Assembly (NCBI GenBank): GCA_000002435.2
Contig: CM018793.1
Strand: one strand, 5' to 3'
From: Giardia intestinalis
Lineage: Eukaryota
DNA: 64,000 bases
Shown: positions 24,001 through 27,000 of the stretch, piece after piece
Layout of the letters: each line of letters opens with the position of its first letter
Numbering within the stretch: the stretch's first letter is position 1
Position numbers: made by a program

Positions 24001-27000
24001 ATTGACAAAGTGCTTGAGGTCTAACTTGAGTGGGCAAGAGCTGATTGTGTCACCTCGGTTGGCAAGTATGTCCAACTGCGTAATGCGTGTAGTCGTCCCC
24101 TGGTGAGGGTGGATGGCCATCTACAGAGCACTATAAAGCTAATCGTGTGGATTGTGGGAGCATCATCCGGTGGCTCGTCTACTGCGGAAAGACGCAACTG
24201 AGGAACTGCTGAGTAGCAAACACGCTGACTGATATTGGTGTGCACCGTATACCTCTACAATAGGGTCTTGCGCCACGTACGGAGAGGAAACGAGCTCCCT
24301 CGACTTCGGAACAGTTGAGTATCCAGAAGCCTCTGCCTCGCTACAAATGCACAAAATCAAATCAGCCTCAAGTCGTCTGCAGACTCCACGATCTTTCCAC
24401 GTTTGGAGGCCAGAGGGACTCACGTGTGTCCTTATTGCAAATGGGTCTATACCTAGTCATCCTATTACAGAGTGGGCTCCCTGGCTTTCTCCATCTTCTT
24501 TGTCCAAATTTGCTTCCCGAGGATCTTTGTACACGAGTAGCCTTCTGTGTACCCAAATAACATCCTTCTTTGTTGAGGCGCTTCACCAAGGACTAGATAC
24601 CACTAGGTCATGCGGACAAAGGCAAACCTTTTCGCAGGTCCGTCTAAAACCAGCCACGGGCATCCAGACAAGTGTATAGATGCTTATCAAGTGGACTGTG
24701 ATACAGGCCAGTTATCGCATGAGGTTCACAGCAGTTGGTGTACAGAGTTCTGTTTTTAGCCATAAGTGTGGAGCCCATGTCTCACCTTGAAAGACGGCAG
24801 AGCGCTTTGTAGGACCTTCCGGGTATATAGTTATTGCTATAACTGATGGAGAAGCAGGTACGAAGACACGATGCTTACACAGAAGCACCTCTGGTGCTAT
24901 CTTCCACTGATAACAGATAGCTCAGACAGGCGGTGTACGCTCTATCATCAGACCTTATACGGCGTGTGTGCATTATTAGAGAAGCTTCTGTAATCTCTGC
25001 TCAGTCTGCTGGGCAGGCACAGCCCAAGTGCAACGAAGACGGTGGTGGAGGCAGCCACCGGCGCAGGGCAGTGGGGCGTGTGGCTCGGTGCAGTGTTCTG
25101 TAGTTAGACACCTCGGCCCTCTGAGACGAGAACAACACGCTGTCTGCACATGCGACTGCCTTTTCATGCTGCTTACTCCTATGAGCAGTTGCGATGCATC
25201 GTATGCCAGAGAGCGGGGCAGAGGGTCCCCAGACTATTGGACCAGCAGGCTAGACTGACAAGAACAGTTGACCATGCGTGCAGAAGCTCTGTCCTGGGGG
25301 CGGCGGGTGCAACGGCTGCCTCAAGTCTTTTAGCCGGGGTGGAGCTGTCCCCTGCTACCTGAGTGGTCTCTCATGCGAGCCATCGCCACCCTGGGCAAGC
25401 CCCTCGCTCGTTCACCAACCGAGATCCAGATCCAGAGTTCGAAGGTGAGTGTCAAGCGACTCCGGCGGGAGAAGAACTCTTGTTCTGCCCTCTTCCCAAG
25501 GACGAGGCAGGACAACCACGATCAGGGGACGATCATGATGCGCTCCACAAGGCAGTCCCGAGTCCCCTGGAGACCCAGACACTGGTCTTCCTTGAGACCT
25601 AGCAGACTGCGTTCCACTGGATGTACATGGGCGGCATTTGCATGGCGCAGGGAGGCGCAGACTGATGGAACACAGCGGTCTTGCTCGACATAGCGAACAT
25701 TCCAACAGTAGACGGCCTCTGCCAGGCGAGTGTGCCCTGCCCCGAGGAGCTGCGTCGAGGCCTTCCTCCGGCTGCGACGCGCTGCACTCCTGGACTTGGT
25801 CCCTCGGGGTTGAGCATGCTTCTGTGCTGCGGGGGACAGAACCTGCTCATCGGAAGCTGAGGAGATGCCCCGCTCACTGCCCATGCCGACGACAGCGACG
25901 CGACGAGGCAGTCACAGAGGCGACAGGCCCGGCGAAGCAACATGGCTCGACGGTCAGCACTGACAAGTATAGGAGCACAGAGTAGCAGGGGGCCCCCTTC
26001 CTGGCCGGTCTCAAGGAGCCCCCAAGGCAACCGAGGGCCGAAGCCAGTGATGGCACTAATCACTCGCCCCGCTTGTCGAGATGGACCCACACGTGACCTA
26101 TGTGAATCCCTCGACAAGAGATGAGGCCCTTGGGGTGCTTGGCTGACAGAGGCGGATTGATCCTGCCTGCACCGGAGAGTGGTGGCGGCCTGGGCCACTT
26201 GCCGGGGGTCTGCCACAGCAGCTGGTAATGCCTTGACATCCTCGAGTAGACGGGTGCCGATTGTAGAGAGACGGCCTCGGTGAACCGGTCCTGACCGCTC
26301 CTGGTGCCTCAGACGACGCCTCGACAGACCGAAGCACCACCCCAAGTGTGCTGTGCGGTGCAGATGGACCAGCCCACACGTCACTGAGCCAGATGCACTG
26401 CACAGGGTGGGCGTCGACGCGGTCTCGTGCTGGGTGACGGACCACCTGCAAGAGCGCCCTGCGATCCATGAGCAGAGGGCCATACTTCTCCCCGACACAA
26501 CACATGGGAGTACTCCATCGACATCCACGAATGCGTACCACAACCTCAAGATAGAGGGACACGGGGAAAGCGCCCTCCGATCATACTCGGGACTGATGGT
26601 GCCCTCCACGAGGAGACGAAGAGGCACCCGAGGAACGGGGTAGACATCCGAGGTATGGCGTGCGATCTTCGTTATGAAGCACCAGCACCACAAAGCGACC
26701 CTGGAGTACATGGCCAGAGTTAACTGCTCTCGAGACTGGATCGCCGCGACTGACGCAAGGCCAGAGACAACGGGTGCTCACTAGTGCCAGACGGTGGCTG
26801 GCCCCGACAGGCCAGAGCGGAGAGACGCCCCGGAGCGCATAGTGGAGCACCCAACGGCTCCCCGGGCGAGGAGGCACAAGGCTCTTCTCCAGAGTGGACG
26901 GCATCTAAGCTTCGGATCCTGGATTTGGATCTTAGCTAATGCATGAGTGGGAGGCCTGCCCAGAGTGGCAGTGACTCACGTGGGAGACCACTCAGATAGC

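What the first reader, a model, noticed from the sequence alone, without database searches (positions are those of the whole stretch)
25400..26900. A second skewed tract (T-poor on the plus strand) carries the longest 'ORF' of the gene-free region, which is probably non-coding
The 370-aa minus-strand ORF 25599..26711 and its neighbours (26098..26562, 26581..26904, with plus-strand overlaps 25638..25985 and 26353..26643) lie in a tract with very few T on the plus strand. The predicted protein is R/S/P/G/A-rich, has no domain-like segments, and overlaps ORFs in other frames. That pattern is the signature of stop-codon depletion by composition. The tract mirrors the 16900-18340 core in composition and in its position beside a repeat copy.
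Basis: partly seen in the sequence, partly recalled or inferred. Interest (0 to 1): 0.5.

Follow-up and report, generated by a model that had tools for sequence, protein, structure and literature searches.

The report
Spurious ORF in dead Giardia repeat
The 370-codon reading frame is not a gene: it lies in a decayed, internally deleted copy of a GC-rich repeat that sits beside surface-antigen genes in the Giardia intestinalis genome, which is an ordinary feature of these gene-poor regions.

Summary
The window is Giardia intestinalis WB chromosomal DNA. The tract and its ORFs are real: T is 15.8%, GC is 62%, and the 370-aa ORF is at 25599-26711(-).

The ORF does not behave like a gene.
- Its codon usage is unlike all 15 real genes in the window.
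- No Pfam domain is found in any of the six frames.
- The AlphaFold2 model has mean pLDDT 34.
- It is absent from the current WB protein annotation.
- It is absent from the matching locus in isolate P15.

It does have significant database hits, 43 in all. Every one is a short Giardia "hypothetical" fragment from another copy of the same DNA repeat, and they hop between frames.

The tract is one 1.66-kb copy (25345-27009) of a family bounded by roughly 105-135-nt inverted repeats.
- Other copies are 1.1 to 3.2 kb long and 75-84% identical.
- They differ by deletions at short repeated motifs (microhomology).
- Where the flanks are visible, they sit upstream of VSP or HCMP genes.

This fits the published description of the dead retrotransposon GilD/Genie 2. 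No reverse-transcriptase relic was detected, so membership is unproven.

Composition alone does not fully explain the ORF length (p about 0.003).

The parts
25345..27009 (.). One copy (1.66 kb) of a Giardia-specific, GC-rich, strand-skewed interspersed repeat. It is internally deleted relative to a 3.2-kb copy.
   Evidence: DNA copies in L001-L006 and L013/L014 are 75-84% identical over 25348-27007. The nhmmer family profile matches them with E=0. The L003 copy is 3.2 kb between its inverted repeats.
25345..25449 (+). Left terminal inverted repeat.
   Evidence: the repeat finder pair I5: 105 nt, 73% complementary. The same terminus, CTGCTAYCTGAGTG...GAGATCCAGAATCCAGA..., is seen in L001-L005. 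nhmmer finds the second arm at E=1.4e-24.
26905..27009 (-). Right terminal inverted repeat.
25599..26711 (-). The 370-aa ORF (open stretch of 392 codons, about 25602-26777). Not a gene.
   Evidence: Present. Codon usage is negative. No Pfam hit. pLDDT is 33.7. Homologues are short frame-hopping fragments. The sequence is held only as a UniParc entry. The flanking genes carry consecutive accessions KAE8305263.1 and KAE8305264.1.
26098..26562 (-). Overlapping 154-aa ORF in a second frame of the same strand. The family-consensus ORF runs through this frame, not through the 370-aa frame.
25477..25486 (.). Junction of the internal deletion of about 1.5 kb relative to the 3.2-kb copy L003 (L003 6723-8218 is missing here).
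   Evidence: blastn: L003 5352-6723 matches window 26817-25487, and L003 8218-8364 matches window 25476-25336. The junction is aligned.
24612..25344 (.). Left flank. It is also repeated, next to another copy of the element (L013/L014), so the duplicated unit can extend beyond the inverted repeat.
   Evidence: blastn: L013 565-1349 matches window 24612-25400 at 79%.
27031..27360 (.). Neighbouring third copy of the 'A' repeat (other copies at 16350-16810 and 18474-18899). It is cut off at a T-run 22 nt from the element's end.
   Evidence: In isolate DH the matching copy continues past this point.
28455..30629 (+). High cysteine membrane protein Group 1 gene. Its 5' end faces the element, 1.45 kb away.
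   Evidence: Pfam VSP family hit. Exact match to KAE8305264.1.
20698..22497 (-). VSP gene (587 aa from its Met codon) on the other side of the 6-kb spacer. Its 5' end also faces the spacer.
   Evidence: Pfam VSP hit at 5e-92. Exact match to KAE8305263.1.

Best explanation
The tract is a dead, internally deleted copy of a Giardia-specific interspersed repeat. The family is GC-rich (about 62%), is A-poor on one strand, is bounded by inverted repeats of roughly 105-135 nt, and is 3.2 kb long in the longest copy seen. It lies in the gene-poor spacer between the 5' ends of a VSP gene and an HCMP gene. Copies have decayed neutrally by point changes, by indels not in multiples of three, and by deletions at short repeated motifs.

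The 370-aa ORF is a by-product. Two things favour it: the low stop-codon frequency of GC-rich, TA-poor DNA, and possibly a faint imprint of an ancient reading frame on one or other strand. It is not a functional gene.

**Shown:** the repeat family, the inverted repeats, the deletions, the lack of coding constraint and the lack of synteny.

**Inferred:** that the family is the 'dead' non-LTR retrotransposon GilD (also called Genie 2). I put that identification at about 0.5. No reverse-transcriptase relic was detected, so I do not file it as a proven member.
For: **Organism.** G. intestinalis WB C6, by exact matches to KAE8305263-66.

**Repeat family.**
- Eight further partial or full copies are 75-84% identical.
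- The inverted repeats are conserved in the window, L003 and L004.
- Copy sizes are 1.1, 1.66 and 3.2 kb.
- Short-read contigs repeatedly end inside the element.

**Homology searches.**
- An exhaustive HMMER search of 1.84 billion representatives gave 43 hits. All are 57-315 aa and match only pieces of the ORF.
- Every named hit among those checked is a Giardia 'hypothetical protein'.
- In the protein alignment, copies switch frame.

**No coding constraint.**
- Substitution rates by codon position against L003 are 0.099, 0.148 and 0.131.
- Only 2 of 16 indels against L003 are multiples of 3.
- Codon-usage score is -0.198, against +0.03 to +0.23 for real genes, and composition shows no three-base periodicity.
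- No Pfam hit in six frames. No Rfam hit. pLDDT is 33.7.

**Synteny.**
- In isolate P15 the HCMP-like and VSP genes are head-to-head and only 752 bp apart, with no element.
- In isolate DH the A repeat runs on past the point where WB has the element.

**Fit to GilD.**
- Three deletion junctions show 6-8 nt of microhomology: CCCAAGG, CTCGGGAC and CAGGYC.
- In the window, L004 and L005 the element lies 1.2-2.9 kb upstream of a VSP or HCMP gene.
- PMC2861651 describes GilD as disrupted by microhomology-mediated deletions and found in gene-poor regions next to VSPs.
- PMC7000408 reports reverse-transcriptase remnants between head-to-head VSP pairs 3.2-3.3 kb apart, close to the 3.2-kb L003 copy.
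Against: **No retroelement protein signal.**
- No reverse-transcriptase or endonuclease similarity was found in any frame of the window copy, of the extra 1.6 kb of L003, of the core at 16700-18600, or of 22450-25400.
- Two searches against solved structures also found nothing relevant.

**Untested or unexplained points.**
- The published GilD and Genie 2 sequences could not be compared.
- The statement that Genie 2 copies carry inverted repeats up to 172 bp is recalled from memory of Burke et al. 2002 and was not read here.
- Inverted termini are atypical of non-LTR elements.
- The duplicated unit extends beyond the inverted repeat in L013, which fits segmental duplication as well as transposition.
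- The ORF is longer than composition predicts. That excess is not fully explained.
Confidence: 0.75

Rival explanations
1. The family is a non-autonomous DNA element with terminal inverted repeats (MITE-like or foldback-like). It is unrelated to GilD and is mobilised, or was once mobilised, in trans.
For: Inverted termini of roughly 105-135 nt are conserved between copies. Internal content and length vary from 1.1 to 3.2 kb. No reverse-transcriptase relic was found.
Against: No target-site duplication is visible at the window, L003 or L004 termini. No transposase signal appears in any frame. From my own knowledge of Arkhipova & Morrison 2001, no transposase-related sequences were reported in Giardia. 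The copies are old (16-25% diverged), so mobility cannot be assessed.
Confidence: 0.15
2. The family is not a mobile element. It is a module of segmentally duplicated flanking DNA of VSP and HCMP genes, and its inverted arms are leftovers of the palindromic (head-to-head) duplications typical of VSP loci.
For: L013 shares 730 bp beyond the inverted repeat. VSPs occur as inverted pairs with conserved spacers. The neighbouring A-core-A' unit at 16350-18899 is a 2.55-kb near-palindrome abutting the 3' end of a VSP-like ORF.
Against: Homology between most copies stops at the inverted-repeat termini, and the flanks are unrelated. The L013 copy is next to unrelated genes, including a kinase and a PIG-L family protein, rather than a VSP.
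Confidence: 0.1
3. The 370-aa ORF is a real, fast-evolving, Giardia-specific protein-coding gene belonging to a multi-copy family of 'hypothetical proteins'.
For: Hits are significant, from E=1e-44 to 1e-4. The open stretch is longer than 99.75% of shuffles. Stop triplets are depleted on this strand. Several paralogous ORFs are annotated in WB and DH.
Against: No hit covers more than 58% of the ORF, and hits change frame. Indels are mostly not multiples of 3 and there is no wobble-position excess. Codon usage is off-frame-like. There is no domain or fold. A second frame is open over the same DNA, and the consensus ORF uses it. The ORF is absent at the P15 locus. No protein entry lies between KAE8305263 and KAE8305264.
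Confidence: 0.03
4. The ORF is purely a composition artefact in unique intergenic DNA.
For: GC is 62% and the TA dinucleotide is at 0.46 of expectation, which cuts the expected stop frequency to about 2.7-3.0%. ORFs overlap in several frames.
Against: The DNA is not unique. It is a multi-copy repeat. The ORF length and the stop depletion both exceed dinucleotide-shuffle expectation, at p about 0.0025-0.004.
Confidence: 0.05

Closest known systems
GilD (Arkhipova & Morrison 2001), also called Genie 2 (Burke et al. 2002): the 'dead' non-LTR retrotransposon family of Giardia
   Same: It is Giardia-specific and every copy is degenerate. It lies in gene-poor regions next to VSP genes, and copies are disrupted by microhomology-mediated deletions (PMC2861651). 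It has inverted repeats at its ends (my recollection of the Burke et al. abstract). Its full length of about 3.2 kb matches the spacers that hold reverse-transcriptase remnants between head-to-head VSP pairs.
   Different: No reverse-transcriptase or endonuclease relic could be detected in any frame. No direct comparison with the deposited sequences was possible.
Spacers of inverted VSP gene pairs in the WB reference genome (Xu et al. 2020, PMC7000408; bioRxiv 10.1101/2022.03.07.483299)
   Same: These are GC-rich, gene-poor DNA between the 5' ends of cysteine-rich protein genes. They carry repeat relics and 'hypothetical genes' without expression evidence.
   Different: Here the flanking genes are a VSP and an HCMP that are not duplicates of each other. 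The spacer is 5.96 kb and composite: unique DNA, the element, and an A-repeat copy.
Non-autonomous DNA elements with terminal inverted repeats (MITEs, foldback elements)
   Same: Conserved inverted termini, variable internal deletions and no coding capacity.
   Different: There is no target-site duplication and no known autonomous partner or transposase in Giardia. At 1.1-3.2 kb the copies are large for a MITE.
Long spurious ORFs in GC-rich, stop-poor DNA
   Same: Several overlapping ORFs on both strands, an amino-acid composition dictated by GC content (R, S, P, G and A make up 48%), and no three-base periodicity.
   Different: The length exceeds the dinucleotide-composition expectation, so composition is not the whole story.

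Membership tests
GilD / Genie 2 dead non-LTR retrotransposon | Recognisable reverse-transcriptase (and endonuclease) relic | tested here: not met
   Six-frame Pfam scans at E<=10 gave no hit for window 25300-27052, L003 6600-8400, window 16700-18600 and window 22450-25400. PDB sequence searches were negative. A frameshift-corrected candidate endonuclease peptide had no Pfam or PDB hit. A heavily decayed relic cannot be excluded.
GilD / Genie 2 dead non-LTR retrotransposon | Located in gene-poor regions next to VSP genes | tested here: met
   The window copy lies in the 6-kb spacer between a VSP and an HCMP. The L004 and L005 copies lie 1.2 and 2.9 kb upstream of VSP genes. The criterion comes from PMC2861651.
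GilD / Genie 2 dead non-LTR retrotransposon | Copies inactivated mainly by microhomology-mediated internal deletions | tested here: met
   Deletion junctions: L013 against the window at CCCAAGG, and L006 against L003 at CTCGGGAC and at CAGGYC. The window's own 1.5-kb deletion junction shows no clear microhomology.
GilD / Genie 2 dead non-LTR retrotransposon | Inverted repeats (up to about 172 bp) at the ends of all copies. This criterion is recalled from the Burke et al. 2002 abstract and was not read here. | tested here: met
   Inverted arms of about 105 nt in the window, at least 43 nt exact-seeded and about 130 nt by profile in L003, and about 100 nt in L004.
GilD / Genie 2 dead non-LTR retrotransposon | Nucleotide similarity to the deposited GilD/Genie 2 sequences | not testable with these tools
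   No eukaryotic nucleotide or Repbase collection is available. The two source papers are not held.
Bona fide Giardia protein-coding gene | Host-like codon usage and three-base periodicity | tested here: not met
   The ORF scores -0.198 bits/codon, whereas all 15 reference genes are positive in leave-one-out scoring. Position-specific composition is flat.
Bona fide Giardia protein-coding gene | Reading frame conserved among homologues, with purifying selection | tested here: not met
   Indels are mostly not multiples of 3 and there is no third-position excess. Homologues are frame-hopping fragments.
Bona fide Giardia protein-coding gene | Conserved synteny in related genomes | tested here: not met
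   Absent from the P15 locus. The DH locus differs at the junction, although that contig ends there.
Class II DNA transposon with terminal inverted repeats / MITE | Terminal inverted repeats | tested here: met
Class II DNA transposon with terminal inverted repeats / MITE | Target-site duplication flanking the termini | tested here: inconclusive
   No direct repeat is seen next to the termini in the window, L003 or L004. The copies are 16-25% diverged and some termini are truncated.
Class II DNA transposon with terminal inverted repeats / MITE | Transposase, in the element itself or in an autonomous relative | tested here: not met
   No Pfam hit in six frames of the 1.66-kb copy or of the extra region of the 3.2-kb L003 copy.

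The most novel reading that the evidence does not exclude
The family is not a retrotransposon relic. It would instead be a previously undescribed non-coding element with inverted termini that sits at the 5' side of VSP and HCMP genes and takes part in their biology. It could seed the inverted (palindromic) duplications and rearrangements of surface-antigen genes, or it could yield hairpin or double-stranded RNA feeding the RNAi-like control of VSP expression. Giardia is thought to lack DNA transposons altogether, so a family with terminal inverted repeats would itself be new.
Probability: 0.1. Interest if true: 0.55.

Novelty: already known. Interest (0 to 1): 0.15.

Why it matters
Little turns on this. 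It confirms that a long ORF once carried as a predicted protein (it survives only as a UniParc entry) is an annotation artefact. It also shows that 'significant database hits' in Giardia can be fragments of repeat-derived ORFs.

It has some use for annotation. At least 43 clusters of 'hypothetical proteins' in WB, DH and metagenome assemblies come from this one repeat, and they could be masked.

The link between repeats with inverted termini and VSP/HCMP gene spacers bears on how the antigen repertoire rearranges. That link is already discussed in the literature.

Tried and rejected
**Reverse-transcriptase relic.**
- Six-frame Pfam scans of four regions were all negative.
- A concatenated three-frame PDB search returned one chance hit, beta-spectrin at E=1.7.

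**Concatenated six-frame query.** A 3221-aa query to the large protein database returned nothing.

**Endonuclease motifs read by eye on the A-rich strand.**
- I thought I saw R2-like CCHC and PD..D..K endonuclease motifs at about 26330-26620 and built a frameshift-corrected 137-aa peptide.
- It has no Pfam or PDB hit.
- Its only relatives are more ORF fragments of the same repeat, and these again use different frames.
- I rejected this as unsupported.

**Homology between the two skewed cores (16900-18340 and 25450-26904).** None was found by blastn, tblastx or nhmmer.

**Other negative checks.**
- Rfam gave nothing at the gathering threshold or at E<=1.
- Start-codon and poly(A)-signal context was not discriminating with my simple test.
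- The source papers on GilD and Genie 2 are not held.
- The WB loci of GL50803_0031391 and GL50803_0027657 could not be fetched.

**Herpesvirus.** This was my first guess from the gene sizes. The Pfam results ruled it out.
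Full report
**What the window is.** Pfam identifies cysteine-rich Giardia surface-protein ORFs (VSP family) at 18941-20533(-), 20698-22497(-) and 28455-30629(+). Ordinary eukaryotic housekeeping genes follow from 31 kb onward. Exact look-ups place the window on the 4.02-Mb chromosome of Giardia intestinalis WB C6:
- VSP, KAE8305263.1
- High cysteine membrane protein (HCMP) Group 1, KAE8305264.1
- Ubiquitin E1, KAE8305265.1
- PPPDE peptidase, KAE8305266.1

The VSP and the HCMP carry consecutive accession numbers. 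The 370-aa sequence is held only as a UniParc entry. From this I infer that the current reference annotation has no protein gene between 22497 and 28455.

**The observation.** It is correct.
- Window 25400-26900 has T 15.8%, A 22.1% and GC 62%. That is 8.4 standard errors below the window's T content, and it is the second most skewed 1.5 kb of the window.
- All five ORFs are at the stated coordinates.
- The product is 47.6% R, S, P, G and A, with 0.8% K.
- It has no Pfam match.

**Is composition enough to explain the ORF?** Not quite.
- Composition lowers the expected stop frequency from 4.9% in genic DNA to 2.7-3.0%.
- The open stretch of 392 codons still exceeds all but 0.25% of dinucleotide-preserving shuffles, which average 182 +/- 45 codons.
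- Stop triplets on that strand, counted in all frames, number 21 against 33.3 +/- 4.2 expected, p about 0.004.
- Two paralogous copies show the same trend more weakly, with z of -1.95 and -1.4.
- Part of the excess is ascertainment bias, because this was picked as the longest ORF in roughly 8 kb of GC-rich DNA.
- Two frames of this strand are open over the same DNA. A consensus of seven copies has a 424-codon ORF that passes through the frame of the 154-aa ORF rather than the 370-aa frame.
- So the depletion is a property of the strand, not of one reading frame.

**Is it a gene?** Every test says no.
- Codon usage: a model trained on the window's genes scores all 15 of them positive in leave-one-out (+0.03 to +0.23 bits/codon). 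The ORF scores -0.198, which is like an off-frame. Its three codon positions have nearly the same composition.
- Substitutions: against five paralogous copies there is no third-position excess. For L003 the rates are 0.099, 0.148 and 0.131.
- Indels: most are not multiples of three, for example 2 of 16 in L003.
- Domains and RNA families: six-frame Pfam scans find nothing, and Rfam finds nothing.
- Fold: AlphaFold2 on the single sequence gives a mean pLDDT of 33.7. This is weak evidence on its own.

**The database hits.** The word-indexed search found 11 relatives. The exhaustive HMMER search of 1.84 billion representatives found 43.
- All are 57-315 aa long.
- None in the first search covers more than 58% of the query.
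- Every named one among those checked is a Giardia 'hypothetical protein', such as GL50803_0031391, GL50803_0027657 and DHA2_15xxxx.
- In the alignment the copies switch between reading frames of the same DNA.
- This is the pattern of gene callers picking accidental ORFs in many copies of a DNA repeat. It is not the pattern of a protein family.

**The repeat family.**
- At the DNA level, eight further partial or full copies (L001-L006, L013/L014) are 75-84% identical to 25348-27007.
- The window copy is bounded by an inverted repeat, 25345-25449 and 26905-27009.
- The same termini recur in other copies, with a CTGCTAYCTGAGTG... outer end and a GATCCAGAATCCAGA-like inner motif.
- L003 has the two arms 3.2 kb apart, and L004 has them 1.1 kb apart.
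- The window copy lacks about 1.5 kb that L003, and in part L006, retain.
- Three other deletion junctions fall at 6-8 nt of microhomology: CCCAAGG, CTCGGGAC and CAGGYC.
- The extra L003 segment has the same GC content and strand skew.
- Short-read contigs repeatedly end inside the element.
- In the window, L004 and L005 the element lies 1.2-2.9 kb upstream of a VSP or HCMP gene on the opposite strand.
- In L013 the homology runs 730 bp beyond the left inverted repeat, to window 24612.

**Synteny.**
- In isolate P15 (assemblage E) the locus is collinear with the window at 87% identity up to the E1 gene. Beyond it, the HCMP-like and VSP genes are head-to-head and only 752 bp apart, against 5958 bp in WB. 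There is no element.
- In isolate DH (sub-assemblage AII) the locus is collinear at 92% through the HCMP gene and the A repeat at 27031-27360. The DH copy of that repeat continues, like the copies at 16350-16810 and 18474-18899, past the T-run where the WB copy stops 22 nt from the element's end. The DH contig then ends.
- So the element's presence here is lineage-specific. The ORF is not conserved in synteny.

**What family is it?**
- Reverse-transcriptase remnants lie between head-to-head VSP pairs 3.2-3.3 kb apart (PMC7000408; bioRxiv 10.1101/2022.03.07.483299).
- VSP surroundings are reported as GC-rich and gene-poor, with hypothetical genes that lack expression evidence.
- From memory, Burke et al. 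2002 reported that all Genie 2 copies carry inverted repeats of up to 172 bp.
- The family found here fits all of these points.
- The defining feature, a reverse-transcriptase relic, was not detected in any frame of any region tested. The published sequences could not be compared.
- I therefore treat GilD/Genie 2 as the most likely identity, at about 0.5, and not as an established membership.
- The main alternatives are an undescribed non-coding element with inverted termini, or a segmentally duplicated VSP-flank module.

**Verdict.** This is an ordinary finding. It does not refute the conclusion, because the hits are fragments of the same decayed repeat.

Noticed in passing
window 1-16350: About 16 kb at normal GC (42-47%) holds only two ORFs of 110 aa or more (111 and 116 aa). 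The genome is reported as 81% coding. tblastn finds no VSP relics, and there are no tandem repeats and no similarity to any fetched locus. I did not establish what this DNA is.
   Followed up: partly
window 16350-18899: A 2.55-kb near-palindrome. Inverted arms 16384-16810 and 18474-18899 are 84% alike over 429 nt, and the inner 163 nt are 93% alike. They flank a 1.66-kb GC-rich core that is A-poor on the plus strand. The right arm starts about 40 nt after the stop codon of the VSP-like ORF at 18941. Its size matches the 2.5-2.8-kb spacers of tail-to-tail VSP pairs in PMC7000408, but no partner VSP lies to the left. No Pfam hit in six frames of the core and inner arms, 16700-18600.
   Followed up: partly
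window 27031-27360; L009 16940-17317: A third copy of the same arm repeat. In WB it is truncated at a T-run, 22 nt from the element's right inverted repeat. In isolate DH the matching copy continues as in the other two WB copies. This points to an insertion or rearrangement in the WB lineage.
   Followed up: yes
window 18941-20533 (-): This VSP-family ORF has a proper CRGKA tail. It starts at GTG with no signal peptide, and in-frame stops lie just upstream. It is probably a pseudo-VSP in tandem with the intact VSP at 20698-22461.
   Followed up: partly
window 28455-30629 (+): Pfam calls it VSP family, but it ends in YRGRK rather than CRGKA. It is annotated as High cysteine membrane protein Group 1, KAE8305264.1.
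   Followed up: yes
L007 13555-18205 (isolate P15): At the matching locus in assemblage E, the HCMP-like and VSP genes are head-to-head with a 752-bp spacer, against 5958 bp in WB. Only about 145 nt of the spacer (window 27554-27698) is recognisably conserved.
   Followed up: yes
window 24612-25344; L013 565-1283: The DNA just left of the element is itself repeated (79% identity), next to another copy of the element at an unrelated locus that holds a kinase and a PIG-L family gene.
   Followed up: partly
window 18443-18475: A short tandem array of a 9-mer (CCCCACCAG, 3.8 copies) at the inner edge of the right arm of the 16350-18899 palindrome.
   Followed up: no
window 25495-25505 and 26020-26032; L013 about 1436-1446: The motif CCCAAGG occurs at both ends of the 525 bp that copy L013 lacks. 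This is a textbook microhomology deletion. Two more examples are seen in L006 against L003.
   Followed up: yes
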